Source of the DNA: a phage
Direction: 5' to 3' (one strand)
Sequence record: QB023162.1
DNA: 40,208 nucleotides
Every line of letters starts with the position of its first letter. Position 1 is the first letter of the stretch. The notes under the pieces were generated by a model, which saw only the letters and a program-made list of their open reading frames with translations, did no database searches and was not told the DNA's origin. The position numbers and the translations under genes are program-made. Of the stretch, positions 1 through 40,208 are shown one piece after another.

Positions 1-669
1 TTCTCCCGCTGGTTCGATGCCGCGTTTCAGAAAGCACCGGATGCGGGAACAGGAGTTATTAACCTGTTGGGGGACTTCGCACACTTCGATAGTCTGGATG
101 CGGTTACACCTGAGTCGCGCCATGTGTTGGACGCGGATACGCGCTACCAAAAACTTGTCCGCTACATGATTCGTATGGTCCGCCGTGTTGTTGATATGGC
201 GCTGGTTAAGCATAAGACAGTTAAACTTTTAATCGTTCAAGGAAATCACGACCCTGTAGGCTCTGTATGGCTCGCCGAAATGTTCTGTACATTGTACGAT
301 AACGAACCTCGCGTATTTGTGGACACCTCCCCCGACGTATACAAGATGGTCCAGCACGGGAAAACTACGCTATTCATGCATCATGGACACCGTGCGAGAT
401 TCGACGCCATAGAGTCAGTAATGATTTCTAAATTCCGTAAGGCTTTTGGAGAAAGCACATACAGCTACGCTCATGTAGGGCATCTACATCATCAGAAATT
501 AGTAGAAAGCCGCAATATGGTAGTCGAACAACACCGAACCCTGGCCGCGAAAGATGCTTACGCATCGCGAGGGGGCTGGATGTCAGGCCGTAGCGCAAAT
601 GTAATTACCTATAGCGCCGAATATGGTGAGGTAGCACGTTTAACTATTTCACCGGAGATGCTGGGATGA
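1..669 (+). CDS. calcineurin-like metallophosphoesterase domain protein, 5'-truncated by window edge (SbcD/Mre11- or phosphatase-like)
   Basis: Frame 1 is open from base 1 to the stop at 667..669. Translation carries GDFAHFD, GNHD, HHGH and GHLH motifs in canonical order. Table ORF 67..669 is only its TTG-initiated tail. Confidence 0.6.
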   Translation, partial: FSRWFDAAFQKAPDAGTGVINLLGDFAHFDSLDAVTPESRHVLDADTRYQKLVRYMIRMVRRVVDMALVKHKTVKLLIVQGNHDPVGSVWLAEMFCTLYDNEPRVFVDTSPDVYKMVQHGKTTLFMHHGHRARFDAIESVMISKFRKAFGESTYSYAHVGHLHHQKLVESRNMVVEQHRTLAAKDAYASRGGWMSGRSANVITYSAEYGEVARLTISPEMLG

Positions 670-896
670 CTTCAAAATACAACCGCGCAATGACAAACAC
701 TCACGGCAGCACTATGACTGTAGACGTTTATGATGTGCTACGTGCCTTCGACATCCGTGACCCGGCATTACAGCACGCATTGAAGAAGCTATTATGTATG
801 GGCTTGCGAGGGCACAAAGACACCGGAACAGACTTAGCGGAAGCAATTGAAAGTCTGGAGAAGTTACGAGAGTACCGAAGCAATATTGACGAGTAA
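666..896 (+). CDS. hypothetical protein (76 aa)
   Basis: ORF table. ATGA start/stop overlap with the upstream phosphoesterase ORF. Stop TAA 894..896 is followed directly by a terminator. Confidence 0.45.
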   Translation: MTSKYNRAMTNTHGSTMTVDVYDVLRAFDIRDPALQHALKKLLCMGLRGHKDTGTDLAEAIESLEKLREYRSNIDE

Positions 897-900
897 GAAA

Positions 901-929
901 AAAAGGCCCCTAACGGGGCCTTAGTTTTA
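901..929. terminator. bidirectional rho-independent terminator between convergent genes
   Basis: Stem GGCCCC (905..910), loop TAAC, stem GGGGCC (915..920), then TTAGTTTTA; an A-run on the 5' side gives a U-tract for the minus strand. Confidence 0.6.
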
Positions 930-2093
930 TGCGTAGGTGATACGCTGGATAACGATAGACGACTGGTACCGGTTGCCTGTGGACTGCCCTTCTATACTCT
1001 GGGTAATTGATTCCGGGCCAGATATTTCTGGTGTAACCGCCGTGAGTTCTGCGCGTTTCAGACTGAAAGACATAGCCCCGTTTACCCCCGCCAGAATAGA
1101 GTTAATCTCTACCTGCTGCTCGTTGATAAACTTCTGAATCATAGCCATGTCGTACAGCTTTCCAGAGATGGAGAAGGTGTTAGCCGCGCGGCTACGCTCC
1201 ACAAACGCCACATTAGTATTGCCGAGTTCGAACTGCGCGGACGCGCTGTTGTCGTTGGTGATGGTAAGGCTATCACAACGCAACGGCGTAGAGCCATCGA
1301 ACACGGAAACGTCAACCGAAGAGAACGGCTCATCACCAAAAGTAACAGATGAGAAGTTGGAACCGGTCGGCGGCGTAGTGAGAATCTCCTGACTGCGACC
1401 GATGAATGGGAAGCTGCCAGTTACCATCGCGTTAACAGCCTGTTCGATGGTAAAACCAGAAACTTCCACGCCTTTGGTTAACGTGTACGCGTCAGTACCG
1501 CCGCACTGGCCTTTGTACCAGGTAAGGATAGAGAACGTCTTACACGTGTTACCGGTTTCCAGCGTGTCGCCGGTTTTAGCCTTACTAGTTTTTGTCTCGG
1601 TGGTCAGGGTGTGTTGGATGCCTGCACCAGTAACAACCGTAGCCGTTACTGCAGTAACAATAAATGGTTTTGCGTTATCGCCTGTTAAATCGGTAAATGC
1701 AATCAGGTCGCCTACCCCAACTCCGTCAGTGATAAAACTGCCGGTAGCGCGTGTGAACGTCTTGCCCGCGGGTGCGACGGTAATCGACAGACTGGACAGG
1801 GAAACACCGGATTGCCACGTAGCGCCTAAAGCTCCGGCCAACCAGTCGTCCTGGCTTTTCGAGCTAAGCTCGATGGCGTATTCTCCGCTAACCTGTTTGT
1901 TACCTGTGCGGATGGATGTAGTTTCACGACTACCGTCCAGTTCATTGGAGGTAAGCGTGTCGCGAGTAATAGCCGGAACGCCACCTGTGTTACGCAACGG
2001 TGACCAGACCGGGTTAGTCGGTGTTACGCCCGGGGTGACTTCCGCCACATAGAATTGCGCGGTAGTCGCGCCCTTAAAAGGAGTTGTAGCCAT
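927..2093 (-). CDS. putative major tail protein (388 aa from ATG 2093; table start is GTG 2099)
   Basis: Last large gene of the connector/tail-completion series. Thr/Ser/Gly/Val-rich. SD AGAGG lies 9 nt upstream of ATG 2093. Confidence 0.45.
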   Translation of the reverse strand: MATTPFKGATTAQFYVAEVTPGVTPTNPVWSPLRNTGGVPAITRDTLTSNELDGSRETTSIRTGNKQVSGEYAIELSSKSQDDWLAGALGATWQSGVSLSSLSITVAPAGKTFTRATGSFITDGVGVGDLIAFTDLTGDNAKPFIVTAVTATVVTGAGIQHTLTTETKTSKAKTGDTLETGNTCKTFSILTWYKGQCGGTDAYTLTKGVEVSGFTIEQAVNAMVTGSFPFIGRSQEILTTPPTGSNFSSVTFGDEPFSSVDVSVFDGSTPLRCDSLTITNDNSASAQFELGNTNVAFVERSRAANTFSISGKLYDMAMIQKFINEQQVEINSILAGVNGAMSFSLKRAELTAVTPEISGPESITQSIEGQSTGNRYQSSIVIQRITYA

Positions 2094-2095
2094 AT

Positions 2096-2512
2096 TCACA
2101 GCCTCTTGGTGAATGCAATAAAGTTAATTGACAATGGTCTTTTGGCCCATCCGTTTTCTACAATCAGCGGCCCCAGGCTAACCGATTGAACCTCGGCGCA
2201 GATGTCGTTACGTGAAAATGACTTGCCTGCTTTAAATGCCGTGTTAAGTAAGTCTGCCATTTTATTGATTGGTGCGCTACCTCTCACCGATGCGTAGTTA
2301 ATGTCGACCTGATAAACACCGGCGCGTTGTTCCGTGAAGAACAAATCAGCCTGTTCCGTATCCGCCAGCAACATGTAACTCGCCAGATACGGCGTATCGG
2401 TCGAAGTCGGAGCGTCAATGTTTTCAAGCGCAACCTTGATGCCGTTGGCGGTTCCGAAGGCTACCAGCGGCACGTCAAACGCTTTTGTTAAGTCCTCAAA
2501 GTAGCCCATCAT
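2096..2512 (-). CDS. putative tail terminator / tail-tube joining protein (138 aa)
   Basis: Synteny only: between the gp10-like gene and the putative major tail gene; start/stop overlaps with neighbours. Confidence 0.3.
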   Translation of the reverse strand: MMGYFEDLTKAFDVPLVAFGTANGIKVALENIDAPTSTDTPYLASYMLLADTEQADLFFTEQRAGVYQVDINYASVRGSAPINKMADLLNTAFKAGKSFSRNDICAEVQSVSLGPLIVENGWAKRPLSINFIAFTKRL

Positions 2513-7241: not shown

Positions 7242-7245
7242 CAGT

Positions 7246-8793: not shown

Positions 8794-8826
8794 TTTGCAG
8801 ACACCAATATAATAGGGTACTATTCA
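8794..8826 (+). promoter_or_regulatory. class A promoter with operator copy O1
   Basis: TTTGCA (8794..8799), then TATAAT (8808..8813) fused to palindrome ATAATAG-GGTA-CTATTCA (8809..8826); 38 nt upstream of ATG 8852. Confidence 0.5.
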
Positions 8827-8851
8827 GTTAACTTAAACAGGAGGCTGAAAA

Positions 8852-9055
8852 ATGTATGCAATTTGCGAAGTAGTTCCAGAGTTCGATGAAGAGTTCGACG
8901 GCGACCTGTACCGGGTTAAAAAGGTTCTTCAGGTTTTCCCTGACGTAAACTCTGCTGATAGAGCACTATACGTGTTTGACCCCGCAAGATACGGGGACTA
9001 CGACACTGTTCTGAGGGTTGTCCATGAGGATTACATAAACACAAGATTCCGTTGA
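8852..9055 (+). CDS. small acidic hypothetical protein (67 aa), antisense moron inside the late operon
   Basis: Own promoter and operator, SD CAGGAGG, and its own terminator; opposite strand to the flanking portal and head genes. Confidence 0.5.
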   Translation: MYAICEVVPEFDEEFDGDLYRVKKVLQVFPDVNSADRALYVFDPARYGDYDTVLRVVHEDYINTRFR

Positions 9056-9060
9056 AAACT

Positions 9061-9087
9061 AAGGCCCCAAACGGGGCCTTTTTCTTT
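9061..9087. terminator. bidirectional terminator
   Basis: AAGGCCCC-aaac-GGGGCCTT stem-loop with TTTTCTTT on plus and a U-rich tract on minus; lies between the moron stop and the portal stop. Confidence 0.6.
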
Positions 9088-21093: not shown

Positions 21094-21112
21094 AAGGGGC
21101 GTTAAGCCCCTT
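21094..21112. terminator. bidirectional stem-loop between convergent primase/helicase and the XRE gene
   Basis: AAGGGGC-gttaa-GCCCCTT; the minus strand has TTCTTTTTACC downstream; includes the XRE stop codon. Confidence 0.5.
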
Positions 21113-21317
21113 CACCGAATGCCAGCCACTTGGCGTCTACTTGCAGCACTTCCGCCAGTTTAAACAGCGTCGCCGGGCGGACGTCTTGGGTTACCCCAAG
21201 TGCCAGCTGGTTAATTGCGCCCTGGGAAACCCCGGTCAGCACCGCCAGACGGCGCTGGGAGATGCCGAGTTCTTTACGGCGCTGTTCTACACGGATGCCT
21301 AGTTCAGATGGTTGCAT
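21102..21317 (-). CDS. XRE-family (Cro/CI-type) HTH transcriptional regulator, candidate operator-binding repressor
   Basis: 71 aa; segment ISQRRLAVLTGVSQGAINQL is a classic HTH_3 motif; SD AAGGAG; its own promoter carries operator O5. Confidence 0.75.
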   Translation of the reverse strand: MQPSELGIRVEQRRKELGISQRRLAVLTGVSQGAINQLALGVTQDVRPATLFKLAEVLQVDAKWLAFGEGA

Positions 21318-21345
21318 GTCAATTACTCCTTAGTTAGTTTATATG

Positions 21346-21363
21346 TGAATAGTACCATATTAA
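21346..21363 (-). promoter_or_regulatory. operator copy O5 with -10 TAATAT for the XRE gene (minus orientation)
   Basis: TGAATAG-TACC-ATATTAA; the -10 lies 40 nt upstream of ATG 21317. Confidence 0.45.
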
Positions 21364-21381
21364 TTATTTTAGAAAAGCCCA

Positions 21382-21410
21382 TTGACAAGTGAATAGCTCG
21401 CTATTATAGT
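21382..21410 (+). promoter_or_regulatory. class B promoter PB1 with operator O6 in the spacer
   Basis: TTGACA (21382..21387), 17 nt containing TGAATAG-CTCG-CTATTAT (21390..21407), TATAGT (21405..21410). Confidence 0.65.
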
Positions 21411-21441
21411 TAGCCCATACCAAATGAGAGGAGAGAAACAA

Positions 21442-21963
21442 ATGTTAGAACAATTCTTAAAATTACTGGAGCGTTTCGTAGTTGCCCATGAACTGATTGC
21501 GGCGAATAGTGCGAAACAAGTTGTCGTTGCCGAAGTAGATGGGTTAACCGCAGAGACTAAAGCAGACGTAGTTCGTGCCGTTGTAAAAGCTGAAGTAACG
21601 AAAGAAATCCCGGTAGAAGGTGAAGACACCGTTGACACTAAACCAGCAGAAGAAGAGAAGCCGAAGCGCAAGCCGCGTAAAGCTAAAGCAGAGGAACCGA
21701 CGCCAGAGCCGGAAGAAGAGAAGGAAGAAGAGAAGGAAGAAGAGAAGGAAGAAGTTGATTATCAGTCTCTGCGTGACCAGATTCAGGCCATCGACGATGC
21801 GATTAACGAAGGTCCTAGCGATGCTGCGTGCGATGATTCCGATGAACTGCTGGAAGAGTTCACCGGTAAGAAAATGAAGATTGCCGCGGTTAAAGACGAA
21901 GACCTGGCTGAATACCTGGAACGCCTGACGGCAATCAAGAACAAGTATTTCGAAGAAGAATAA
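21442..21963 (+). CDS. acidic low-complexity early protein (about 174 aa; start ATG 21442 rather than table 21424)
   Basis: SD GAGAGGAGAG before ATG 21442; strongly acidic with an (EEEK)n tract; the only gene between PB1 and the following terminator. Confidence 0.55.
   Translation: MLEQFLKLLERFVVAHELIAANSAKQVVVAEVDGLTAETKADVVRAVVKAEVTKEIPVEGEDTVDTKPAEEEKPKRKPRKAKAEEPTPEPEEEKEEEKEEEKEEVDYQSLRDQIQAIDDAINEGPSDAACDDSDELLEEFTGKKMKIAAVKDEDLAEYLERLTAIKNKYFEEE
21711..21754 (+). repeat. in-frame 12-bp tandem repeat (GGAAGAAGAGAA, about 3.7 copies)
   Basis: Three exact copies at 21711..21746 plus a partial copy; encodes the EEEK repeat. Confidence 0.8.
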
Positions 21964-22210: not shown

Positions 22211-22479
22211 TTTACCAACTCTACCGCGCCGTAGACAGGCGGGATAACACAGAGGCGCTATGGCTGTTGCGTGCGCCGTCCGGTGCACACCAGATGGAAG
22301 AGATGGCGTACTTAGGCAAAGTACCGCGTCCTAAAGACATAGGCCGTCACGTGTCGCTGATTAAGCGCACGACTTTCGCAAAACCTGACTTTTATGTCTT
22401 CGAGTCGATGTATGGCTGGGCTATGCACTGCGACCATAAGACACGACATTTAATTGACCAGTGGGAGAACAGGGTATGA
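22207..22479 (+). CDS. hypothetical protein (90 aa from ATG 22207)
   Basis: ATGA coupling at both ends (22207..22210 and 22476..22479). Confidence 0.45.
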   Translation: MIYQLYRAVDRRDNTEALWLLRAPSGAHQMEEMAYLGKVPRPKDIGRHVSLIKRTTFAKPDFYVFESMYGWAMHCDHKTRHLIDQWENRV

Positions 22480-23717
22480 TTTTAAAGGAACGCGGCGGCA
22501 ATAACGATGTGCACGCCTTACTGTCGCCGTCAGGTGCTAAAAAGTGGCTAAGTTGCGCCGCATCACTGGCCTGTGAAAAAGATATCCCTAACACGTCCGG
22601 TAAAGCCGCTGTATTAGGCACAGCTATGCACACCATAGCGGAGATGCACCTAAACCAGTACATCAAAGGCACTGCGTTGCCGTTAGAGCGTGAGGTCGGA
22701 GCTTACGTACTGGATGAGGGTAAAGGCCAGATTAAGGCGCTAATCAGTCCGATGAAAGGCGCGGTACTGATTACGGCAGACATGATTGAGCAGGTGCGCA
22801 AGTACACCGACTACTGCAAAGCGATTATTGACGTAGCGACTTACGCCAAGCTGGAAATGCGCGTCAATCTTACTGAGGTATTGCATCCTGGTTACGAAGG
22901 TGTCGAGACGTTCGGAACCGCTGACCTTGTTGCCGTTCAGGAACTGGCTAACACCGACGAGCACATGCTCATTATCGGCGACCTTAAAACAGGACGGCAT
23001 CGTGTCGAAGCGAAAGAAAACAAGCAGCTTATGCTTTACGCTCTCGGTGTTTATCGCCGACTCAAGAGACGTTATAACATCACAGTAGTGCGCCTGGTCA
23101 TCTTCCAGCCGTACGCGGGAGGTGCGTCAGAGTGGGACATCTCGGTCGAAGGTCTGGAACTGTTCGCTAAGTTCGCACAGAAACGTGCCCTGTTAGCGTT
23201 AGATGCATATTTCCGCGGTAAGAAGAACCTGAAAGCGTCGGACTTCAGGCCGTCGGTCGATGGTTGCCAGTGGTGCCGGTTCTCAGAACAGTGCGCCGCG
23301 CGTACAAAAACCGTTAACTCTGTACTGGCGGAAGGACTTGAAGACGACTTTGCGCTTGAAATGACGCCGGAGCAACTCGTAGTTGAGTATGGGAAGTTGC
23401 CGCTGTTGCGCCTGCACATCGACAAGGTTGAGAAAGCGATGGCCGCCGCATTGCATTCTGGTAAGAAAGTTCCTGGGTACAAGCTGGTTGAAGGTAAGAT
23501 GGGCAATCGTGCGTGGAAAGACGCGGAGAAAGTAACAGAACTCTACGGCGACAAGCTGACTAAAGAAGTGCTCATGACGCCAACCGAAGCTGTTAAAGTG
23601 ATACCGGAAGAAGAACTGAAAGACTTCATCACACGTAAGCCAGGTGCCCCATGCATCACAAAGGCAGACGACAAACGGCCTGAGTGGAATCAGGTTAGTG
23701 AAGAAGATTTGGAATAA
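22476..23717 (+). CDS. PD-(D/E)XK nuclease, Cas4/RecB-like with Fe-S cysteine cluster (start ATG 22476; table start is GTG 22461)
   Basis: IGDLKTG (DxK) and QLMLY (QxxxY) RecB-type motifs; one N-terminal Cys plus a C-terminal C-x2-C-x5-C (CQWCRFSEQC); SD GGGAGAA. Confidence 0.65.
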   Translation: MILKERGGNNDVHALLSPSGAKKWLSCAASLACEKDIPNTSGKAAVLGTAMHTIAEMHLNQYIKGTALPLEREVGAYVLDEGKGQIKALISPMKGAVLITADMIEQVRKYTDYCKAIIDVATYAKLEMRVNLTEVLHPGYEGVETFGTADLVAVQELANTDEHMLIIGDLKTGRHRVEAKENKQLMLYALGVYRRLKRRYNITVVRLVIFQPYAGGASEWDISVEGLELFAKFAQKRALLALDAYFRGKKNLKASDFRPSVDGCQWCRFSEQCAARTKTVNSVLAEGLEDDFALEMTPEQLVVEYGKLPLLRLHIDKVEKAMAAALHSGKKVPGYKLVEGKMGNRAWKDAEKVTELYGDKLTKEVLMTPTEAVKVIPEEELKDFITRKPGAPCITKADDKRPEWNQVSEEDLE

Positions 23718-24431: not shown

Positions 24432-24450
24432 TATCTGAATCAATTTAACT

Positions 24451-24476
24451 AAGGCCCTTCATTGGGCCTTTTTACT
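24451..24476 (+). terminator. rho-independent terminator/attenuator between the SSB-like gene and DNA polymerase
   Basis: AAGGCCC-ttcatt-GGGCCTT followed by TTTTT; the polymerase SD and ATG follow within 20 nt with no intervening promoter. Confidence 0.55.
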
Positions 24477-26662: not shown

Positions 26663-26783
26663 ACTGATTATCGCGGTACTGGCGGGATTCGCCGCCGGTG
26701 TCTACTGTCACGAGGGCCAATACGGCATGATGGTTGCTATATTGGGTATGTTCATCGCAATTTATCTGTGGGTGCTGGAATGA
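26652..26783 (+). CDS. unlisted 43-aa single-pass membrane mini-protein
   Basis: ATG 26652 overlaps the polymerase 3' end; hydrophobic helices LIIAVLAGFAAGV and MMVAILGMFIAIYLWVL; ATGA coupled to the next ORF. Confidence 0.35.
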   Translation: MPSKLIIAVLAGFAAGVYCHEGQYGMMVAILGMFIAIYLWVLE

Positions 26784-26869
26784 AAATTTACCGGTTCTAC
26801 GAAGAAGACTGTCGAATCTGTCCGCGCTGCGGGATTGAGCATACGAAACGTGAGGGGTGCGTGTTATGA
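26780..26869 (+). CDS. unlisted 29-aa zinc-ribbon-like mini-protein
   Basis: Translation MKIYRFYEEDCRICPRCGIEHTKREGCVL has C-x2-C-x2-C plus a fourth Cys; ATGA overlaps at both ends. Confidence 0.3.
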   Translation: MKIYRFYEEDCRICPRCGIEHTKREGCVL

Positions 26870-27018
26870 CAATGTTTGTATTTTGGACGATAGTAACCAT
26901 GCTCGCACTGCTACTCGGTGCGGGGATAGCTGCGATGTTCTGTTATGGTCTGTTCTTTAAGTTTGTTGGCGCTGCTGTTCTAGGCGGGGCTTTCCTTACC
27001 TGGATTCTGCGGCCATGA
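26866..27018 (+). CDS. unlisted 50-aa two-helix membrane mini-protein
   Basis: Two hydrophobic segments (FVFWTIVTMLALLLGAGIAAMF and FVGAAVLGGAFLTWIL); ATGA coupled to the VRR-NUC gene. Confidence 0.35.
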   Translation: MTMFVFWTIVTMLALLLGAGIAAMFCYGLFFKFVGAAVLGGAFLTWILRP

Positions 27019-27299
27019 CCCCGGAAGGCAAGATTCAGAAATACGCAAAAGAGAGATTCGAGGCCCTGGGCGGCCTCGTTCGAAAGCTGTCTTATGAGGG
27101 GCGTTCCGGCGCTCCTGACCTGCTGGTGATTCTCCCCGGCGGCATCGTATGGTTCGTCGAGGTGAAGAAAGACGAAAACACGAAGCCAGACCCGCACCAG
27201 TTACGGGAGCACGAGCGGATGAGCAAACGTGGTGCTAATGTTTTTGTCGTTGGTTCGTTCAAACAGGTTGACACCCTAATAGCGAGCTATTATAGTTAA
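27015..27299 (+). CDS. VRR-NUC domain nuclease
   Basis: 94 aa with GAPDLLVILPGGIVWFVEVKK, i.e. a PD...(E)VK PD-(D/E)XK core typical of VRR-NUC. Confidence 0.7.
   Translation: MTPEGKIQKYAKERFEALGGLVRKLSYEGRSGAPDLLVILPGGIVWFVEVKKDENTKPDPHQLREHERMSKRGANVFVVGSFKQVDTLIASYYS
27268..27296 (+). promoter_or_regulatory. class B promoter PB3 with operator O8, embedded in the 3' end of the VRR-NUC gene
   Basis: TTGACA (27268..27273), 17 nt containing CTAATAG-CGAG-CTATTAT (27276..27293), TATAGT (27291..27296). Confidence 0.65.
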
Positions 27300-27329
27300 T
27301 CACACACCAACAATATAAGGAATTGAGAA

Positions 27330-27521
27330 ATGAAACACGAATACGACCGCAAACCAGCACGTGACATCGTACCTGGCGACATGATTTTCAACGTTAAGAC
27401 TCGCCAGCCTGTTGCCGTTGATACGGTGTTCGTGGAGTCGAACGGTAAACTGGTTATCGAAGACGTAACAGGTAACGTTACGGCGTTCGGGCGTAAAGAG
27501 CTGGTGCTGGTGGCAAAATGA
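27330..27521 (+). CDS. hypothetical protein (63 aa)
   Basis: ORF table; SD AAGGAA; ATGA coupled to the helicase gene. Confidence 0.45.
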   Translation: MKHEYDRKPARDIVPGDMIFNVKTRQPVAVDTVFVESNGKLVIEDVTGNVTAFGRKELVLVAK

Positions 27522-28942
27522 GTAAGTTTCAAAGGCGCGAGTACCAGAAGCTCATGACTTCGTTCATGCTACAGCATCATCGCTGTAATATTTGGGCGAG
27601 CATGGGTGCCGGGAAGACTGGCAGCGTACTGTGGGCGTTAAACAGACTGTTCCGCAACGGCCAACTTAATGATGATGACCGCGTGTTAATCCTCGCGCCG
27701 TTGCGTGTTGCGTCCGGCACATGGCCGGCAGAACAAGAGAAATGGCAATTCCCATGTCTGCGTGTCGTTGATGCAACCGGTTCAGAGAAGCGCCGCATCG
27801 CGGCGCTGGAGTCTGATGCTAACGTGGTTTGCACGAACTACGAAGTTATCGAGTGGCTGATTGACTACTACGGCAAAGACGACTGGCCTTTTACCGTTAT
27901 CGTTGCCGATGAAAGCACGAAGCTGAAATCATTCCGCAGCCGTTCTGGTGGAAGCAAGCGGGCGAAGGCGCTTAGTAAAGTGGCGTTCGGTAAGGTTAAG
28001 CGTTTCATTAACCTTACCGGTACACCGTCACCGAACGGCCTTAAGGACTTGTGGGGTCAGAACTGGTTTATCGACGCTGGAGAGCGCCTCGGTTCTTCAT
28101 ACACAGCATTCACAGACCGCTGGTTTAACTCGGTACAGAAGGGCAAATCGGCGATGGCACGTGAATACCACGCCCGCCCTGGCGCAGATAATGAGATTCA
28201 TCAGAAGATGAAAGACATTAGTCTCACGATTGACGCGGCCGAGTGGTTTGGTTGTGAAGCGCCGATTATTGTACCGGTTGAAATCGACCTACCGAAGAAG
28301 GCGCGTCAGGCGTACATCGATATGGAGGAGAAGCTATTCGCAGAACTGGAGAGCGGGGAAGTGGAAGCGGCTAACGCTGCGGCGAAGACGTCGAAGTGCC
28401 TACAGATTGCATCCGGTGCCGTGTATGTATCGGGGCCAGACGGAGAAGCAACCAAAGACTGGGAGAAAGTTCACGACACGAAACTGGATGCGCTTGAGTC
28501 GATTGTTGAGGAGTTACAGGGCGCTCCGTTATTGGTGGCCTATCAGTTTAAGCACGAACTGGAGCGCATCCTTAAGCGATTCCCGCAGGCGCAGGCGTTT
28601 GCCAAAGGTGCGAAGGGTAATAAGCAGATGGAAGCGTGGAACCGCGGGGAAATCGAAATCTTATGCGTACATCCTGCGTCAGCCGGTCATGGTTTGAATT
28701 TACAGGACGGCGGGCATCATCTGGCATTCATCTCGCAAGGCTGGAACCTTGAGCACTATTTGCAGGTTGTCGAGCGTATAGGCCCGGTCCGCCAGAAACA
28801 GGCAGGGCACGAGCGACCAGTGTTCCTCTATCACATCGTTGCTAAAGACACGCTGGACGAGGTTGTTGCCGCGCGTACAGACGAGAAGAAATCGGTGCAG
28901 GAAGAATTGCTTAATTACATGAAGAGACGAGGTAAGAAATGA
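27518..28942 (+). CDS. SNF2/DEAD-like superfamily 2 helicase
   Basis: Walker A GAGKTGS, DExx-like VIVADEST, C-terminal helicase domain; typical partner of VRR-NUC in phage genomes. Confidence 0.7.
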   Translation: MSKFQRREYQKLMTSFMLQHHRCNIWASMGAGKTGSVLWALNRLFRNGQLNDDDRVLILAPLRVASGTWPAEQEKWQFPCLRVVDATGSEKRRIAALESDANVVCTNYEVIEWLIDYYGKDDWPFTVIVADESTKLKSFRSRSGGSKRAKALSKVAFGKVKRFINLTGTPSPNGLKDLWGQNWFIDAGERLGSSYTAFTDRWFNSVQKGKSAMAREYHARPGADNEIHQKMKDISLTIDAAEWFGCEAPIIVPVEIDLPKKARQAYIDMEEKLFAELESGEVEAANAAAKTSKCLQIASGAVYVSGPDGEATKDWEKVHDTKLDALESIVEELQGAPLLVAYQFKHELERILKRFPQAQAFAKGAKGNKQMEAWNRGEIEILCVHPASAGHGLNLQDGGHHLAFISQGWNLEHYLQVVERIGPVRQKQAGHERPVFLYHIVAKDTLDEVVAARTDEKKSVQEELLNYMKRRGKK

Positions 28943-29080: not shown

Positions 29081-29106
29081 AAGGCCCCGTTTGGGGCCTT
29101 ATTTTT
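29081..29106. terminator. bidirectional terminator between the replication module and the tailspike gene
   Basis: AAGGCCCC-gttt-GGGGCCTT followed by ATTTTT; a U-rich tract is also present for the minus strand. Confidence 0.6.
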
Positions 29107-36109: not shown

Positions 36110-38419
36110 TTAATACCCCGGCTGACCGCGGGTAGCGCGGCGAGCTTTAGAAATCGGCGAGTTGTTATCCTGTAACTGCGACGCTACTGTTTCACTGATT
36201 ATAATACGTAATCGCCCTTCGTCATCACGTTCTGTTACAGCAGAATCTACGCGCCCGGTGGTGTTGTTGACTATGGTTACATTGTCTCCGCCGGACGTGC
36301 TGCCGTTTTGGCCCATAATCTCTTTCATCTGCTGCGCGGTGCGCACACGCGATGCTCCCGCTGGCATGATAACTTCTGGTTTACCGCGCTCAGCGATGGT
36401 GGAAGCCTGTCCCGCGGATAACTGACCGCCCTGCTCACGCGCTGACCGGATTTTGGCGATATTAGCCAGCCCCGCAGCAACGGCAGTAGCTGCGGCAACC
36501 GGCGCCAGGAATGGGCCAACAACAGGGATCGCAGCCGTTGCCTTATATGCCTCAATAGCCGATGTGTACGTGGCGATAGTGGCCTGCGCAATAGCAAACG
36601 CTTTATACGCGGTGGACGCCTCGCCAAATGCTGTTTTAGCATTAGCCGCCATGTCTCCGAAAGAACTACCTAAAGCATCGGCGCGCTTCGTGGCATACTG
36701 CTCATTGATAGCGTTAAGCGCCGCCTGATACTGTTCCTCATTAATCAGCCCCTGCTCACGGTACTTATCCGCTACCGCCAGTTTCTGCTGCTCCTGGATG
36801 TCGAGAAGCTCAAGCTCGGCGGCATTCTGACCCATAATCTGAGCCATGAAGTCGTCGCCTTTCTGCTGCTTTTCCTGGGCTTCTTTTCTTTTCTTATCTA
36901 GTTCTTCCTGTCTGGCCTGCTCGGCAGATAGCATAATCTGAGTTTTTGCGTTTTCGTATTGCTGCTGACTTATCGTTCCTGCGCGGTTGAACTCTTCAAG
37001 TTTCGCCAGTTTCTGTTCTTCCGCCGCTGTAATACGTGAAATTTCGTCTCCAGTAGTGCGGTCGACAGTAGCGAGGAAATCTTCCGCTGCTTTTTTCTGA
37101 CGTTCAGCCGCCGTTTCTTCACGTTTGGCCTGCGCCGCCAGACGTTTCTCGTTCGATTTAGCCTCGCGGTCTGCCTTCTCTTTCTCGGTCTTGTCAATGC
37201 GAGCTATGTCTTGCTGCGCTTCCGCGTCACGGGCGGCGTTATACGCGGCTATCTGTTCTTTGGTGACAGCTTCACGTTTAGCGAACGCCTGCTTATCCAG
37301 TTCAGCCTGCGCCCGGATGCGCTCACGGTCGCTTAAGATGGCGATTTGCTGATTCTTGACGATAGCTTCGTTCTGTTCCTGGAATCTCTGCGTGGTTGAG
37401 TTAACGTTACGACCAAGATTCTTTTGGGCCTCTGCCGCCGCGTTTGCTGACTTCTCCGCGTTCTCCAGTGCTGTGGCGTTCTTGTTGGCGTTGTCCGTCA
37501 GGCGGATAAGTTCCGGGTTCAACTGTTTTGTGTTGCCCAGCCAGTCGGTAAACACATCGGCGATGCGACGGGCATTCTCAGCGGTCGGCTCTTTATTAAA
37601 CGCGCTCTGCGCCGCTATCATCTCCAGCGCCTGGTCACGGTTAACCCCGAACTTACTGCTAAGCTCTGCGATATTCTGCGCCAGCATGTTGACGCCTACG
37701 ATGTTACCCTCGTAAGTGCCACCGAGTTTTTCTAACGTGTCGCCTACATCCGCACCTTTAGAGACCAATGCATCGTACTGGCTGATAGCTGATGCTGTGG
37801 ATGCCTTCCATGTCTCCCATGATTCTGCGTCCTCACGAACAGCTTTAGCTGTTTGCTGTGCGATAAGGTCCGCGTTAGCCTTAGCCAGCGCAAGCTGAGT
37901 CTCCGCCGCTTCTCTGCTGATTTGGGTAAGCTGGATAAGGCCGTCTGTCAGTTCGAGAGAGCCGGACGCCGTTTGCTGGAAAGTATCTTTTAACTGTTTC
38001 TGTGCGGCTTCCAGGTCTTTTGAGCTACCCTCAGCCTCAGTTAATGATTTGTAAAGAACGCCACCAACCGCTGACGCTAGCGCGATTACAGCCCCAAGCA
38101 CCGCACCACCGGGGCCGAAAGCACCCGCAAGCTGCGAACCTTGCTGACCGATTGCCACAAATGCCGACGTACCGGATTGCAGCTGGACAACCATGTCCTG
38201 CACCTGGAAGCCAACCTGCCCGGCGGCGTTACGGAACTTAGCGAAACCGTCAGAGGCTGCTTTAGAGGTAGCTGTGTTAACTTTATTGACATCCGGAGTC
38301 AGCTTGTTTACTGCGGTATCCGCCCGGTCTGCGGATGCCGCCATAGCGTCAAGCTGTTTGGCGGCTACGTCAGCGCCTTCTGTTTTTACTCTGGCAATTA
38401 GGGAAGCCGTATCAGCCAT
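36110..38419 (-). CDS. tail tape measure protein (start ATG 38419; table start is TTG 38434)
   Basis: About 769 aa, Ala/Gln/Glu/Lys-rich coiled coil; downstream of the chaperone pair; SD GAGGG before ATG 38419. Confidence 0.8.
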   Translation of the reverse strand: MADTASLIARVKTEGADVAAKQLDAMAASADRADTAVNKLTPDVNKVNTATSKAASDGFAKFRNAAGQVGFQVQDMVVQLQSGTSAFVAIGQQGSQLAGAFGPGGAVLGAVIALASAVGGVLYKSLTEAEGSSKDLEAAQKQLKDTFQQTASGSLELTDGLIQLTQISREAAETQLALAKANADLIAQQTAKAVREDAESWETWKASTASAISQYDALVSKGADVGDTLEKLGGTYEGNIVGVNMLAQNIAELSSKFGVNRDQALEMIAAQSAFNKEPTAENARRIADVFTDWLGNTKQLNPELIRLTDNANKNATALENAEKSANAAAEAQKNLGRNVNSTTQRFQEQNEAIVKNQQIAILSDRERIRAQAELDKQAFAKREAVTKEQIAAYNAARDAEAQQDIARIDKTEKEKADREAKSNEKRLAAQAKREETAAERQKKAAEDFLATVDRTTGDEISRITAAEEQKLAKLEEFNRAGTISQQQYENAKTQIMLSAEQARQEELDKKRKEAQEKQQKGDDFMAQIMGQNAAELELLDIQEQQKLAVADKYREQGLINEEQYQAALNAINEQYATKRADALGSSFGDMAANAKTAFGEASTAYKAFAIAQATIATYTSAIEAYKATAAIPVVGPFLAPVAAATAVAAGLANIAKIRSAREQGGQLSAGQASTIAERGKPEVIMPAGASRVRTAQQMKEIMGQNGSTSGGDNVTIVNNTTGRVDSAVTERDDEGRLRIIISETVASQLQDNNSPISKARRATRGQPGY

Positions 38420-39190
38420 CTTCTCTGCCCTCAAATATTCCGTCTAAGCCCATGATAACCTCGGCTTCGAACAAACTTATGCCGTAACCGGCGACATCAC
38501 GAAACGCTACCAAATCTTGCCATTTGAGCGCATCGCGCGGGATTATGACGATAGTATCATCTGTTTCGCGCTGTAGGAATTTAATGGCGCGGTATTTCTC
38601 GAACACGTCGATAAGAGAAACGGGGCATTCAGGCCCCGTCGCTTCTTTCATCTGCGGTTCTTTAATCACGCCCATTGCAATCAAAGCCGCCTGGTGGCCT
38701 GCCGCTATGTCGTCGAATTGCTTACGTTTGTGGCGGTCGACAAAGCACCATTGCGCAAATTCATACAGCGCTTTTACTTTTCCGAGAGTTTCTCGCGACT
38801 GTCGGTGTGATGCTTAACTACGGCCTCCGCCAGCCCACTGTACTGGTCGAACAGGTTAGCCAGTGCCTCTTTGCTGAAAGGTTCGTCGAACGACCAACCG
38901 GTGACGATTTCAACGGCAAGCTGCTTGTTCAAGTCCACCACCCGCCAGCCCTTCTCATCGTTATAGCGCGCCCAGTTATTCAGCGCCTCGCACTCTTTAT
39001 CTAACGGCGCAAGTTCTTCCGTAAGGCGTCGAATTGCCGTTGTATAGGCCCGGCCAGCACGAACGCCAGCGTCACAATCAGGGCCGATGACTTGCAACCA
39101 TTCACCGGAATCTTTACCGCTAGGCAGAAGGATGGGCATTTTAGTGCCAGCAGCATGGCGGTCCGCAAAATAAAAATCAGAGAGTTTCAT
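38412..39190 (-). CDS. tail assembly chaperone G-T fusion product (predicted -1 programmed frameshift near 38777..38783)
   Basis: The -1 frame is open from 38813 through ORF 38412..38684; heptamer GGAAAAG sits at the last two codons of G just before its TAA; the arrangement matches the conserved G/GT pair upstream of tape measure genes. Confidence 0.4.
38774..39190 (-). CDS. tail assembly chaperone (G-like)
   Basis: 138 aa directly upstream of the tape measure gene, with an overlapping -1 frame extension. Confidence 0.55.
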   Translation of the reverse strand: MKLSDFYFADRHAAGTKMPILLPSGKDSGEWLQVIGPDCDAGVRAGRAYTTAIRRLTEELAPLDKECEALNNWARYNDEKGWRVVDLNKQLAVEIVTGWSFDEPFSKEALANLFDQYSGLAEAVVKHHTDSREKLSEK

Positions 39191-39297
39191 TATTTAATCC
39201 TTTGGTTAAGAGGTTACAAGTTAAGGTTGACGCGCCAGACGGGAACCACCCGCTTTTCGTGTGCGACACTAGGCGCAAACTTATTCTAACACACTAC

Positions 39298-39329
39298 TTG
39301 CGCACCCCAATATAATAGAGTACTATTCA
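39298..39329 (+). promoter_or_regulatory. class A promoter with operator copy O9
   Basis: TTGCGC (39298..39303), then TATAAT (39311..39316) fused to palindrome ATAATAG-AGTA-CTATTCA (39312..39329); 38 nt upstream of ATG 39355. Confidence 0.5.
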
Positions 39330-39354
39330 CCTGTAACTTACTGAGGAAATAATT

Positions 39355-39681
39355 ATGCGTAAATTAGTATTAGCTCTGGGGTTTATGTCTTTTGCCGCTT
39401 TTGGGTCCCCGTGCGAACAGGTATTTAGTGAATCTGTTCTTATGACTTCTGGTGTGCTCGATAAAGCCGACCCTACTATTGTAAAGGCATTTAAGGACTC
39501 TACCGTTCGCGAGTGTGAGGCTGCCGTAGGGGTTGGTAAATCGGGCCTGCCTCCGCAAGCCGTAACATACTCTGTAATACGTTCGGTAGAGAAAAACGGA
39601 GACGCGTTTTACAGCCTACTGACAGCCACCCGCCTGCAAATGGTTATGACCGGGTGGGCGATAGGTGCGGAAAGTAAATAG
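39355..39681 (+). CDS. small secreted/periplasmic protein (108 aa) with signal peptide
   Basis: N-terminus MRKLVLALGFMSFAAFG is a typical Sec signal; SD GAGGAA; first gene of the plus-strand island. Confidence 0.5.
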   Translation: MRKLVLALGFMSFAAFGSPCEQVFSESVLMTSGVLDKADPTIVKAFKDSTVRECEAAVGVGKSGLPPQAVTYSVIRSVEKNGDAFYSLLTATRLQMVMTGWAIGAESK

Positions 39682-39746
39682 TCGCCTTTATTTAAATGAA
39701 TGCACTGTGGTTAAATAGGACAAATCCTAAACACGAGGAAGTAAGC

Positions 39747-40208
39747 ATGGCCAGGAAGAAAATAACCGACGAACAGTTACAGGAAGAATTGAACGCCGGG
39801 GTGAAGAATATCGATATAGCCCGTAAATACGGCATCTCGGACCGCGTAATTCGCATCCGTAAAGCGAAGTTGGCTAAGAAAGGTGTGGGCCACGGGCGTG
39901 ATGTTAGCCATCTTGTGCCCGACGGCTACAAGATTAAAGGGACGTCATCCCTGGTGGACGAGTTCGGCAACACTAAGTTGCAATGGGTTAAGACCGACAC
40001 TGATGCCGAACGTCAGGTAGAGTTGATGAAAGCCGTAATCGAAGGCATGAAGTCAGAGATTACACCAGTCGCCCCTGTTAAAGCCGTTCGCGCCAAACGA
40101 GACGACAAGCTACTCAATCTTTACACTGTGTCTGATTTCCATCTCGGTATGCTGGCCTGGGCTGACGAGAGCGGCGACGACTGGGATATGAAGATTGCAG
40201 AAGACCTG
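39747..40208 (+). CDS. N-terminal part of an HTH-domain plus metallophosphoesterase protein, 3'-truncated by window edge
   Basis: SD GAGGAAG before ATG 39747; HTH-like NIDIARKYGISDRVIRIRKAK; phosphoesterase motif I SDFHLG near the window end; frame open to base 40208. Confidence 0.55.
   Translation, partial: MARKKITDEQLQEELNAGVKNIDIARKYGISDRVIRIRKAKLAKKGVGHGRDVSHLVPDGYKIKGTSSLVDEFGNTKLQWVKTDTDAERQVELMKAVIEGMKSEITPVAPVKAVRAKRDDKLLNLYTVSDFHLGMLAWADESGDDWDMKIAEDL

What the first reader, a model, noticed from the sequence alone, without database searches (positions are those of the whole stretch)
39298..40208. Plus-strand accessory island between tail genes: secreted protein plus HTH-metallophosphoesterase
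A class A promoter with operator (39298..39329) drives a 108-aa signal-peptide protein and then an ORF that begins with an HTH-like domain and runs into phosphoesterase motif I (SDFHLG) at the window edge. Its apparent continuation at 1..669 supplies motifs II to V, followed by a coupled 76-aa gene and a terminator. The cassette is antisense to the flanking tail genes and under the early operator. That placement suggests host takeover, anti-defence (for example a nuclease or nucleotide-signal phosphodiesterase) or superinfection exclusion rather than virion assembly. An HTH fused to an SbcD/Mre11-like or phosphatase-like domain is unusual.
Basis: partly seen in the sequence, partly recalled or inferred. 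Interest (0 to 1): 0.6.

Follow-up and report, generated by a model that had tools for sequence, protein, structure and literature searches.

The report
Conserved phage HTH-nuclease-like phosphoesterase operon
This is a real three-gene operon of a Kagunavirus phage whose central gene encodes a DNA-binding domain fused to a complete Mre11/SbcD-like metallophosphoesterase; that protein family is common and already annotated in phages, but nobody has characterised it.

Summary
The window is a circularly permuted Kagunavirus (Guernseyvirinae) genome. ORF 39747..40208 continues in frame at 1..669 and gives a 376-aa protein that is contiguous in relatives.

The protein has an N-terminal three-helix HTH, a beta-hairpin/helix linker and a complete binuclear metallophosphoesterase (MPE) domain. 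All metal ligands are invariant. The closest folds are PolD-DP1, Mre11 and SbcD.

The promoter with its 14-bp palindrome, the 108-aa signal-peptide gene, the overlapping 76-aa gene and the bidirectional terminator are all present.

- **HTH-MPE fusion:** it is not unusual. It is PHROG 704 ("DNA repair exonuclease"), found in about 2,000 of 50,697 phage records. It was constant in the 25 Guernseyvirinae loci sampled, and a paper reports it as persistent in Drexlerviridae.
- **Accessory parts:** the variable genes are the two slots on either side of the MPE. The 108-aa gene alternates with a T4 Imm-like superinfection-immunity gene. The 76-aa gene alternates with a HAD phosphatase plus dNMP kinase pair.
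- **Regulation:** the same palindrome marks the replication-gene promoters and flanks a Cro-like repressor gene.

The most likely role of the MPE is a metal-dependent DNA nuclease tied to replication and nucleotide supply, analogous to T5 A1. The 108-aa protein is probably an envelope or superinfection-exclusion factor. No function was shown. This is a new member of a known but uncharacterised kind.

The parts
39298..39326 (+). Sigma-70-like promoter, TTGCGC (39298-39303), 17-nt spacer, TACTAT (39321-39326).
   Evidence: Read directly from the sequence. There are five near-identical copies in the window: 8811+, 39314+, 17924-, 16788- and 21348-. It is conserved in K1H and SCS44. The generic scan did not call it because the -35 hexamer matches only 3 of 6.
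39314..39327 (.). 14-bp palindromic operator AATAGAGTACTATT, overlapping the spacer and the -10 hexamer.
   Evidence: There are 8 exact copies and 11 with at most 1 mismatch in the window, against 0.93 expected by chance. All exact copies but one (17101) lie at promoter-like sites upstream of early or replication genes.
39355..39681 (+). Gene for a 108-aa secreted (signal-peptide) protein with two invariant Cys. It occupies the variable first slot.
   Evidence: ORF with a GAGGA ribosome-binding site. Full-length hit to PHROG 14165, function unknown. Only 22 clusters in 5.8 billion proteins, all on phage-size contigs. Found in 99 phage records. AF2 gives a helical model, pLDDT 74.5, with no PDB fold match. 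The same slot holds an Imm_superinfect gene in other Guernseyvirinae.
39747..40208 (+). 5' part (codons 1-154) of the HTH-metallophosphoesterase gene: HTH residues 8-44, beta-hairpin 61-85, helix 87-102, and the start of the MPE domain with motif I (D130/H132 at 40134-40142).
1..669 (+). 3' part (codons 155-376 plus stop) of the same gene, carrying motifs II to V.
666..896 (+). 76-aa gene whose start overlaps the MPE stop codon (ATGA). It occupies the variable downstream slot.
   Evidence: It is a stand-alone small gene in 774 phage records. It matches only the C-terminal third of PHROG 2452 and 17613. K1H carries a HAD phosphatase plus dNMP kinase here instead.
903..922 (.). Bidirectional intrinsic terminator between the convergent 76-aa gene and major tail protein gene.
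   Evidence: 8-bp stem with 6 GC pairs, called on both strands. It is one of five near-identical hairpins in the genome.
38774..39190 (-). Flanking tail assembly chaperone gene.
927..2099 (-). Flanking major tail (tube) protein gene.
21102..21317 (-). Cro/CI-type HTH repressor gene lying between two copies of the operator. It is the candidate protein that binds the operator at 39314-39327.
   Evidence: Pfam HTH_3, E = 1.1e-12. PHROG transcriptional repressor families. Operator copies at 21348 and 21392.

Best explanation
The finding is the promoter-proximal two thirds of a three-gene plus-strand operon. In Guernseyvirinae phages this operon sits between the tail assembly chaperone gene and the major tail protein gene.

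**Regulation.** A sigma-70-type promoter overlapped by a 14-bp palindrome drives the operon. The same palindrome marks the promoters of the replication genes. It is most simply read as the binding site of the phage's 71-aa Cro-like repressor. On that reading the operon is switched on and off together with the early/replication genes (inferred).

**The constant gene.** It encodes a 376-aa protein with three parts:
- a LuxR/sigma-region-4-like three-helix HTH;
- a beta-hairpin plus helix linker;
- a complete binuclear metallophosphoesterase domain whose closest structural relatives are the DNA nucleases PolD-DP1, Mre11 and SbcD.

I take it to be a metal-dependent DNA nuclease or phosphodiesterase that the HTH tethers to DNA (inferred). 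It would work as an outlying part of the replication and nucleotide-supply module. Its most likely job is to break down host DNA, or to process DNA ends, so that dNMPs enter phage DNA synthesis (inferred). This parallels the predicted metallophosphatase A1 of T5 and the MPE Gp48 of mycobacteriophage A10ZJ24.

**The first gene.** The 108-aa secreted, disulfide-capable helical protein is an exchangeable moron. It occupies the slot that other family members fill with a T4 Imm-like superinfection-immunity protein. It most likely acts in the envelope, for example in superinfection exclusion (inferred from position only).

**The last gene.** The 76-aa gene is a widespread small early gene of unknown role.
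For: **Anatomy and the join:**

**MPE domain.**
- The metal ligands D130, H132, D179, N236, H282 and H317 are invariant and H315 is at least 90% conserved across 60 diverse homologues; H237, G178 and G314 are also invariant.
- The AF2 model has pLDDT 91 and pTM 0.78.
- A profile search of PDB sequences returns only SbcD, Mre11 and P. putida nuclease MPE for the catalytic part. These hits are weak (E 0.6-2).
- Motif II is GDFxH, as in Mre11.

**HTH.** The model shows three helices at residues 8-44. The only N-terminal sequence hits are HTH regulators, mostly LuxR/GerE-type (GerE, DesR, RhlR, FixJ), all sub-threshold.

**Family size and core status.** PHROG 704 matches full length. The family is in 2,017 phage records and 4,571 representatives. 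It is the constant gene in all 25 Guernseyvirinae loci sampled. It is reported as persistent in 508 of 522 Drexlerviridae (PMC13164509).

**Link to DNA and nucleotide metabolism.**
- A PNKP-type HAD phosphatase and a dNMP kinase directly follow the MPE in K1H, in 9 of 25 Guernseyvirinae loci and in phages whose MPE is only 52% identical.
- The same two genes are the most frequent genes right after it in Drexlerviridae lacking the SH3 gene (PMC13164509).
- Neighbours elsewhere include nucleoside 2-deoxyribosyltransferase, a MazG-like pyrophosphohydrolase, a 5'-3' exonuclease, endonuclease VII, dCMP deaminase and thymidylate synthase.

**Co-regulation.**

**Analogues.** T5 A1 is reported as the sole pre-early factor necessary and sufficient for host DNA degradation, and as sharing structural features with double-strand-break-repair nucleases and polymerase proofreading subunits (bioRxiv 10.64898/2026.04.02.716235). 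Gp48 is an MPE that disrupts host DNA (PMC12287305).

**108-aa protein.** Signal-peptide features and invariant Cys20/Cys54 come. The positional exchange with Pfam Imm_superinfect genes (E 1e-13 to 1e-15) comes.
Against: - No activity, substrate, expression time or phenotype is known for any member of this family. None was found in the literature searches.
- Pfam Metallophos and Metallophos_2 hits are below the gathering score.
- No sequence homology to T5 A1 could be shown beyond a 20-residue stretch around motif III (hhalign probability 17%).
- The protein lacks the Mre11/SbcD capping domain, and the phage annotation shows no Rad50/SbcC partner.
- Nothing explains how a host-degrading nuclease would spare phage DNA, and this window lacks the methyltransferase that Bas71 carries.
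- In several lineages the gene sits next to the lysis cassette or a Q-like antiterminator, which does not point to nucleotide salvage.
- This particular phage lacks the HAD and dNMP kinase genes.
- The role proposed for the 108-aa protein rests on position alone, and its fold matches nothing known.
- 'Early' timing is inferred from shared promoter and operator sequence, not measured.
Confidence: 0.5

Rival explanations
1. The protein is a recombination or replication end-processing nuclease, not a host-DNA degrader. It would work like a Rad50-independent Mre11/SbcD or a DP1-type 3'-5' exonuclease that trims ends, hairpins or flaps on phage replication and recombination intermediates or concatemers.
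For: The top structural neighbours are exactly these enzymes. The phage has a T7-like replication and recombination set, with a Gp2.5-like annealing protein, exonuclease, Holliday-junction resolvase, DNA polymerase and primase-helicase, under the same operator family. In L048 the gene sits beside a 5'-3' exonuclease and endonuclease VII. The gene is persistent in families with very different replication modules, which fits a generic DNA-processing role.
Against: There is no capping domain and no SbcC/Rad50-like partner. T1 has the gene but no DNA polymerase, so a polymerase-subunit role cannot be general. The gene is physically separate from the replication module in Guernseyvirinae. The recurrent linkage is to a dNMP kinase and a phosphatase rather than to recombinases.
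Confidence: 0.22
2. The protein is a nucleic-acid end-healing phosphoesterase (2',3'-cyclic phosphodiesterase or 3'-phosphatase). It would act with the PNKP-type phosphatase and a kinase to repair tRNA or DNA cut by host anticodon nucleases or other defences, as the MPE module of Clostridium thermocellum Pnkp does.
For: The next gene in many relatives is a HAD_PNKP domain protein (E = 6.7e-20) that annotators call polynucleotide kinase. MPE domains act as healing enzymes in bacterial Pnkp (own knowledge).
Against: The P-loop gene that follows is PHROG 139, a dNMP kinase (E = 2.6e-46), not a polynucleotide 5'-kinase. The annotated Bas71 genome lists no ligase gene. The window itself lacks both partner genes yet keeps the MPE. 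The closest folds are DNA nucleases.
Confidence: 0.08
3. The protein is an anti-defence phosphodiesterase that destroys nucleotide second messengers (cyclic oligonucleotides, cAMP/cGMP-type signals).
Against: Cyclic-nucleotide phosphodiesterases rank below the nucleases. A conserved DNA-binding-type N-terminal domain has no obvious use for a small-molecule substrate. The gene is core rather than patchy, unlike known anti-defence genes. There is no PADLOC hit, and this library holds defence systems, not anti-defence genes, so the result is weak. BASEL Kagunavirus isolates were scored mainly against restriction-modification and Old systems, with nothing reported that bears on signalling defences.
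Confidence: 0.07
4. The protein is a regulatory protein phosphatase or transcription factor. It would be a positional analogue of lambda NinI (lambda Ser/Thr phosphatase, also an MPE encoded just upstream of Q and the lysis genes), with the HTH acting as a gene regulator that might even bind the AATAG-N4-CTATT operator.
For: In many lineages the gene lies immediately upstream of a Q-like antiterminator (9 loci) or of the lysis cassette, as ninI does in lambda (own knowledge). The N-terminal domain looks like LuxR/sigma-4 regulators. One record annotates a piece of it as 'transcriptional regulator'.
Confidence: 0.08

Closest known systems
PHROG 704 'DNA repair exonuclease' (T1 ORF16/ST16, K1H gp19, Bas71_0022; also annotated as calcineurin-like phosphoesterase, DNA polymerase II small subunit, or HTH-type regulator/nuclease SbcD)
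   Same: The HMM matches full length (residues 4-375 to profile 2-389 of 390, E = 1.5e-162). Length, HTH + linker + MPE architecture and invariant residues are the same. The protein is 94-98% identical to other Kagunavirus proteins and 40-45% identical to Drexlerviridae proteins.
   Different: Nothing of substance; it is a member. In Guernseyvirinae the gene sits between tail genes. In Drexlerviridae and Dhillonvirus it sits beside the lysis cassette or near the genome end.
Mre11 / SbcD nucleases and the PolD DP1 proofreading exonuclease
   Different: Sequence identity is only 12-17%. There is no capping domain (Mre11/SbcD) and no OB fold (DP1). No Rad50/SbcC or DP2 partner is encoded. The N-terminal HTH plus beta-hairpin module is absent from those families.
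Bacteriophage T5 A1 (pre-early predicted metallophosphatase, reported as necessary and sufficient for host DNA degradation) with its DNA-binding partner A2
   Same: Both are phage MPE-type predicted nucleases that appear to be expressed early. T5 A1 is described as having the same class of structural neighbours (double-strand-break-repair nucleases and polymerase proofreading subunits). Both are associated with a DNA-binding function and with dNMP-handling enzymes: Dmp in T5, and HAD phosphatase plus dNMP kinase here.
   Different: No demonstrable sequence homology exists beyond 20 residues at motif III (hhalign probability 17%), and none to A2. A1 is 556 aa. The DNA-binding function is a separate protein in T5 and a fused domain here. 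The link is functional analogy only.
Mycobacteriophage A10ZJ24 Gp48 (cluster A MPE)
   Same: It is a phage MPE with all five motifs, expressed early. It has phosphodiesterase activity and disrupts host genomic DNA (PMC12287305).
   Different: It belongs to a different phage lineage and host. Its sequence was not compared here, and no N-terminal HTH is described for it. Relatedness beyond the superfamily was not tested.
T4 Imm-type superinfection immunity proteins (Pfam PF14373), as a comparison for the 108-aa protein
   Same: Both occupy the same slot, as first gene after the same promoter/operator and directly upstream of the MPE gene. Both are targeted to the envelope.
   Different: There is no sequence or fold similarity. 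Imm is a roughly 60-aa membrane protein. The 108-aa protein has a cleavable-type signal peptide and a soluble helical body with two Cys. It is not a member.

Membership tests
Binuclear metallophosphoesterase (calcineurin-like) superfamily | Five motifs that supply the metal ligands: DxH, GD, GNH(D/E), H, GHxH. | tested here: met
   D130, H132, G178, D179, N236, H237, H282, G314 and H317 are invariant, and H284 and H315 are at least 90% conserved, in 60 homologues.
Binuclear metallophosphoesterase (calcineurin-like) superfamily | The MPE beta-sandwich fold. | tested here: met
Binuclear metallophosphoesterase (calcineurin-like) superfamily | Pfam Metallophos or Metallophos_2 at the gathering threshold. 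| tested here: not met
   Scores are 22.8 bits against a cut-off of 27, and 18.5 against 21.5. This is a divergent branch, and one homologue cluster carries a precomputed PF12850 hit.
PHROG 704 'DNA repair exonuclease' | A full-length match to the family profile. | tested here: met
   E = 1.5e-162, residues 4-375 aligned to profile positions 2-389 of 390.
Mre11/SbcD nuclease family | A nuclease-type MPE core with motif II GDLFH-like and motif III GNHD. | tested here: met
Mre11/SbcD nuclease family | A C-terminal capping domain. | tested here: not met
   The model ends with the MPE domain at residue 376, and the extra module is N-terminal.
Mre11/SbcD nuclease family | A Rad50/SbcC ATPase partner. 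| tested here: not met
   No such gene appears in the fully annotated relative Bas71.
Mre11/SbcD nuclease family | DNA exo- or endonuclease activity. | not testable with these tools
   This needs biochemistry.
Archaeal PolD DP1 small subunit | An OB fold plus MPE domain that binds DP2. | tested here: not met
T5 A1-like host-DNA-degradation protein | Sequence homology to A1. | tested here: inconclusive
   hhalign of the family profile against the single A1 sequence gave probability 17% over 20 columns around NHD..S.WL. No A1 family profile could be built.
PPP-type Ser/Thr phosphatase (lambda NinI) | Motifs GDxVDRG and GNHE. | tested here: not met
LuxR/GerE-type or sigma-region-4-type HTH | A significant profile match and a helix-turn-helix fold. 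| tested here: inconclusive
   The model has three helices at residues 8-44 with pLDDT 75-92. Sequence hits to GerE, FixJ, DesR and RhlR are all sub-threshold, at E 0.006-0.4. DNA binding was not tested.
Sec signal peptide (108-aa protein) | A basic n-region, a hydrophobic h-region and small residues at -3 and -1. | tested here: met
   The sequence MRK-LVLALGFMSFAAF-G|SP fits, with hydropathy 2.3 over residues 4-14. The N-terminus varies while the mature part is conserved. There is no lipobox. No dedicated predictor was available.
T4 Imm superinfection immunity family (PF14373) | A Pfam match. | tested here: not met
   The 108-aa protein has no Pfam hit. The positional alleles in SCS44 and templet do match, at E 1e-13 to 1e-15.
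Intrinsic (rho-independent) terminator | A GC-rich hairpin followed by a T-run. | tested here: met
   The 903-922 hairpin has 8 pairs, 6 of them GC. The T-run is stronger on the minus strand (TTTTTCTT) than on the plus strand (AGTTTTAT).
Sigma-70 promoter with repressor operator | -35 and -10 hexamers at 17-nt spacing, a recurrent palindrome, and measured transcription and binding. | tested here: inconclusive
   The hexamers match 3 of 6 and 4 of 6 at 17-nt spacing. The element has five copies, and the palindrome is enriched roughly 12-fold over chance and conserved in relatives. Function was not measured.

The most novel reading that the evidence does not exclude
The HTH-MPE family may be the missing host-takeover nuclease of the small virulent siphoviruses. 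The family was constant in the Guernseyvirinae loci sampled, is reported as persistent in Drexlerviridae, and is present in about 4% of sequenced phages. On this reading it is a DNA-tethered, Rad50-independent Mre11-like enzyme that degrades the host chromosome and feeds a phosphatase/dNMP-kinase salvage route, as T5 A1 is thought to do, but with the DNA-binding partner fused. In parallel, the 108-aa secreted protein would be a new, structurally unprecedented superinfection-exclusion factor that is allelic with T4 Imm-like proteins.
Probability: 0.3. Interest if true: 0.5.

Novelty: new member of a known kind. Interest (0 to 1): 0.3.

Why it matters
The gene family is large. It appears in 2,017 phage records and 4,571 clusters at 50% identity, and it is core in two common groups of coliphages and Salmonella phages used for therapy and as models. 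Yet it carries only guessed labels such as "DNA repair exonuclease", "DNA polymerase II small subunit" and "phosphatase".

This analysis gives three concrete, testable hypotheses for an abundant protein of unknown function:
- it is a full-length HTH + Mre11/DP1-like MPE with an intact active site;
- it shares an operator with the replication genes;
- it is recurrently linked to a dNMP kinase and a PNKP-type phosphatase.

The analysis also shows which parts of the island are the true morons. The slot alternating between Imm and the 108-aa protein is a good place to look for new superinfection-exclusion proteins.

For the scan itself, the result is mostly a correction. The feature is real but ordinary for this phage group.

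Tried and rejected
- **Structure of the window's own protein.** I used P0001 instead, which is 95% identical and identical across the junction.
- **76-aa gene as a deletion remnant.** I tested whether it is left over from the K1H HAD/dNMP-kinase genes. It is not. The DNA alignment shows a clean replacement, not a deletion. The 76-aa protein is a stand-alone gene in 774 phage records. It is not next to the MPE in phiKP26 and is unrelated to aaroes gp02.
- **A second MPE paralogue.** The 418-aa 'exonuclease' at 22461..23717 is PHROG 69, a different family.
- **Homology to T5 A1 and A2.** Results were not significant.
- **BFVD fold search.** It returned only other uncharacterised phage MPEs of about 400 aa.
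- **PDB fold search for the 108-aa model.** There was no match; the best E was 3.1.
- **PADLOC.** No hits for any of the three proteins.
- **NCBIfam.** Nothing above the cut-off.
- **PDB sequence search with the single protein.** Nothing useful.
- **Rfam on the whole window.** No family matched.
- **Conserved 39230-39280 element.** Folding the intergenic stretch 39191-39300 that contains it gave z = 0.11, so there is no evidence of structure.
- **Literature.** Searches for Guernseyvirinae or Kagunavirus or SECphi18 with phosphoesterase or exonuclease found no functional study. The STAND-receptor preprint does not mention this protein. The BASEL paper describes Kagunavirus biology but not this gene.
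- **The search for related loci.** It failed with the 60-sequence alignment because no conserved stretch was found. It worked with an 11-sequence subset.
Full report
**What the window is.** The region 39200-40208 matches 217 phage records. The best are Escherichia phages M01 and CR01 at 95.7%, then K1H, NTEC3 and BASEL Bas71-75, all Kagunavirus (Guernseyvirinae). The 40,208-bp window behaves as a circularly permuted complete genome of this group.

**Checking the observation.**
- The ORF starting at 39747 is exactly 154 codons to the last base of the window. Frame 1 at base 1 is open to the stop at 667-669. Joining the two gives 1131 nt, 376 aa.
- K1H and Bas71 carry the same gene as one uninterrupted 1131-nt CDS.
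- A 376-aa homologue is 95% identical without gaps and identical across the junction (…KIAEDL|FSRWFD…).
- 585 nt spanning the junction align to K1H and Bas71 with no gap. The two halves are therefore one gene.
- The other elements are as described: a 108-aa ORF 39355..39681 with a GAGGA ribosome-binding site, a 76-aa ORF 666..896 whose ATG overlaps the MPE stop (ATGA), and an 8-bp, 6-GC hairpin at 903-922 scored as a terminator on both strands.
- The neighbours on the minus strand are the tail assembly chaperone (38774..39190, followed by the frameshift partner and the tape-measure gene) and the major tail protein (927..2099).

**The promoter and operator.**
- The generic sigma-70 scan did not call 39298-39329. 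The sequence reads TTGCGC, 17 nt, TACTAT, and it is one of five near-identical elements in the window (8811+, 39314+, 17924-, 16788-, 21348-). Each lies 20-35 nt upstream of a ribosome-binding site and start codon.
- Their common core is the palindrome AATAG-N4-CTATT. It occurs 8 times exactly and 11 times with at most one mismatch, against 0.93 expected; no shuffle out of 100 reached 11.
- Three further copies sit in a second promoter type, TTGACA, 17 nt, TATAGT. These lie upstream of the exonuclease operon, the Gp2.5-like SSB gene and the helicase operon.
- A 71-aa Cro/CI-type HTH protein (Pfam HTH_3, E = 1.1e-12) is encoded at 21102..21317(-), between two operator copies. It is the obvious candidate for binding the operator.
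- The promoter and palindrome upstream of the cassette are conserved in K1H and SCS44, and the palindrome also in a Jerseyvirus.
- The cassette therefore carries the same regulatory signal as the replication genes. That this means "early" is an inference.

**The 376-aa protein.**
- Pfam gives only sub-threshold Metallophos and Metallophos_2 hits and a weak GerE HTH hit.
- PHROGs gives a full-length hit to PHROG 704, "DNA repair exonuclease" (E = 1.5e-162).
- An exhaustive HMMER search of 1.84 billion representatives found 4,571 clusters (1,131 at E ≤ 1e-30). Nearly all are 370-420 aa and align from about residue 5-60 to the C-terminus.
- tblastn finds the protein in 2,017 of 50,697 phage records: Guernseyvirinae, Dhillonvirus, Drexlerviridae (including T1 ORF16), Klebsiella phages, Vibrio siphoviruses, N4-like roseophages, Campylobacter CP8-type phages and Rhodobacter RcKeef.
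- In an alignment of 60 members at 33-95% identity, the invariant columns are D130, H132, G178, D179, N236, H237, H282, G314 and H317. H284 and H315 are at least 90% conserved. This is the complete ligand set of a binuclear metallophosphoesterase plus the extra His of motif III.
- The AlphaFold model of a 95%-identical homologue (P0001, identical across the junction) has pLDDT 91 and pTM 0.78. It shows three helices (8-16, 21-28, 32-44), a disordered stretch (45-58), a long beta-hairpin (61-85), a helix (87-102) and the MPE sandwich (119-376).
- A family-profile search of PDB sequences gives only weak hits. They fall into two groups: HTH regulators, mostly LuxR/GerE-type, for residues 9-58, and SbcD, Mre11 and P. 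putida nuclease MPE for the catalytic part.
- The protein has no capping domain and no OB fold. The annotated relative Bas71 encodes no Rad50/SbcC-like partner. It is thus Mre11/DP1-like in its core but is not a member of those families.

**Core or accessory?**
- I fetched 80 related loci from IMG/VR, called ORFs, and classified the genes between the chaperone and the major tail protein in the 25 Guernseyvirinae loci.
- The MPE gene is always there.
- The gene before it is either an Imm_superinfect family membrane protein (15 loci; Pfam E 1e-13 to 1e-15 in SCS44 and templet) or the 108-aa protein (6 loci).
- The genes after it are either HAD phosphatase plus dNMP kinase (9 loci), the 76-aa gene (13 loci), or the 76-aa gene preceded by an HNH endonuclease or a small membrane protein.
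- The two slots combine freely.
- In public phage records the 108-aa protein is found in only 99. About 495 records carry a Guernseyvirinae-type major tail protein at 60% identity or more. The 108-aa protein has only 22 clusters in 5.8 billion proteins.
[quoted passage not shown] - So the MPE is a core gene and the flanking slots are the accessory part. The position between tail genes is peculiar to Guernseyvirinae. In Drexlerviridae, Dhillonvirus, a Vibrio phage and RcKeef the gene lies by the lysis cassette. In a roseophage it follows dCMP deaminase and thymidylate synthase.

**What it most likely does.**
- K1H's "polynucleotide kinase" is only the PNKP-type HAD phosphatase domain (PF25109, E = 6.7e-20). 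Its "ATP-binding protein" is PHROG 139, a dNMP kinase (E = 2.6e-46).
- The same triplet occurs in phages whose MPE is only 52% identical (L048/L049), there next to a 5'-3' exonuclease and endonuclease VII.
- Other neighbours are a nucleoside 2-deoxyribosyltransferase and a MazG-like pyrophosphohydrolase.
- Taken together, the nuclease-like fold, the DNA-binding-type N-terminal domain and the shared operator point to a DNA-directed phosphodiesterase attached to the replication and nucleotide-supply functions.
- The nearest studied analogues are T5 A1 and mycobacteriophage A10ZJ24 Gp48. A1 is a predicted metallophosphatase reported as the sole pre-early factor necessary and sufficient for host DNA degradation. 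It is described as resembling double-strand-break-repair nucleases and polymerase proofreading subunits, and it works with the DNA-binding protein A2 (bioRxiv 10.64898/2026.04.02.716235). Gp48 is an early MPE with phosphodiesterase activity that disrupts host DNA (PMC12287305).
- Homology to A1 could not be shown; hhalign gave probability 17% over 20 columns at motif III. This is a functional analogy only.
- Rival readings cannot be excluded, because no member of the family has been studied. These are an end-processing nuclease for replication or recombination, an RNA/DNA end-healing enzyme, a nucleotide-signal phosphodiesterase, and a lambda-NinI-like phosphatase or regulator. The last is suggested by the frequent position upstream of Q-like antiterminators and lysis genes.

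**The 108-aa protein.**
- It has a typical signal peptide whose sequence drifts while the mature part is conserved. It has no lipobox and two invariant cysteines.
- The model is helical with moderate confidence (pLDDT 74.5) and has no PDB fold match.
- Its only functional clue is that it replaces an Imm-type superinfection-immunity gene at the same promoter-proximal slot. This makes an envelope or exclusion role plausible but unproven.

**The 76-aa protein.** It belongs to a widespread family of small phage genes found in 774 records. It also aligns to the C-terminal third of some proteins of about 240 aa (PHROG 2452 and 17613). It is not a remnant of the K1H genes.

**Verdict.** The "unusual fusion" and "accessory island" claims do not hold. 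It is a member of a very common, already annotated but uncharacterised phage family, in its usual Guernseyvirinae context. Interest is modest. The open question is the real function of this abundant HTH-MPE, which is directly testable in available model phages (T1, SECphi18, Bas71-75).

Noticed in passing
window 8795-9083: There is a second antisense mini-island inside the head gene cluster. It has a class A promoter/operator (8795-8826, 81% identical to the one at 39288-39329), a 67-aa ORF at 8852..9055(+) with only a marginal PHROG hit, and a hairpin terminator at 9057-9083. The homologue in Bas71 is Bas71_0006.
   Followed up: partly
window 21102-21411: A Cro/CI-type 71-aa HTH repressor gene (21102..21317, minus strand) sits at a divergent promoter region with two copies of the AATAG-N4-CTATT palindrome (21348 and 21392). 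This is probably the regulatory switch of the phage, although Guernseyvirinae are regarded as virulent.
   Followed up: partly
window 39230-39280: A stretch of about 50 nt (GCGCCAGACGGGAACCACCCGCTTTTCGTGTGCGACACTAGGCGCAAA) lies between the tail-chaperone start codon and the promoter. It is conserved from Kagunavirus to Jerseyvirus more strongly than the flanking intergenic DNA. It has no Rfam match and no significant fold (z = 0.11). It may be the promoter or leader for the downstream tail genes, which are cut off from the major tail gene by the antisense cassette and its terminator. A weak minus-strand promoter-like match (39337 to 39309) overlaps the same operator.
   Followed up: partly
window 903-922, 7223-7247, 9061-9081, 24449-24471, 29081-29103: Five near-identical GC-rich hairpins (AAGGCCCC-N4-GGGGCCTT with flanking A/T runs) lie at gene-cluster boundaries. 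They form a repeated, probably bidirectional terminator family.
   Followed up: no
window 26662-28942 and 666-926, compared with L005 (Bas71) and L001 (K1H): This genome (40.2 kb) is smaller than its relatives (41-45 kb). It appears to lack the DNA methyltransferase gene that Bas71 has next to the helicase gene. It also lacks the HAD phosphatase and dNMP kinase genes that K1H has after the MPE.
   Followed up: partly
window 21705-21752: A tandem 12-nt repeat (AGAGAAGGAAGA, 3-4 copies) lies inside ORF 21424..21963 (179 aa, PHROG 3127, function unknown). It encodes a short Glu/Lys-rich repeat.
   Followed up: no
window 38412-39190 (minus strand): The tail assembly chaperone ORF (38774..39190) is followed by an overlapping ORF (38412..38684). 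K1H annotates the pair as a two-piece joined CDS, which is the usual programmed -1 frameshift of siphovirus chaperones.
   Followed up: no
loci L054-L089 (IMG/VR contigs with an MPE about 50% identical): In nine diverse loci the gene immediately downstream of the MPE homologue is a Q-like antiterminator (PHROG 79, E = 7e-14). This recalls the ninI-Q-lysis order of lambda and suggests that this MPE family often marks the boundary before late or lysis genes.
   Followed up: partly
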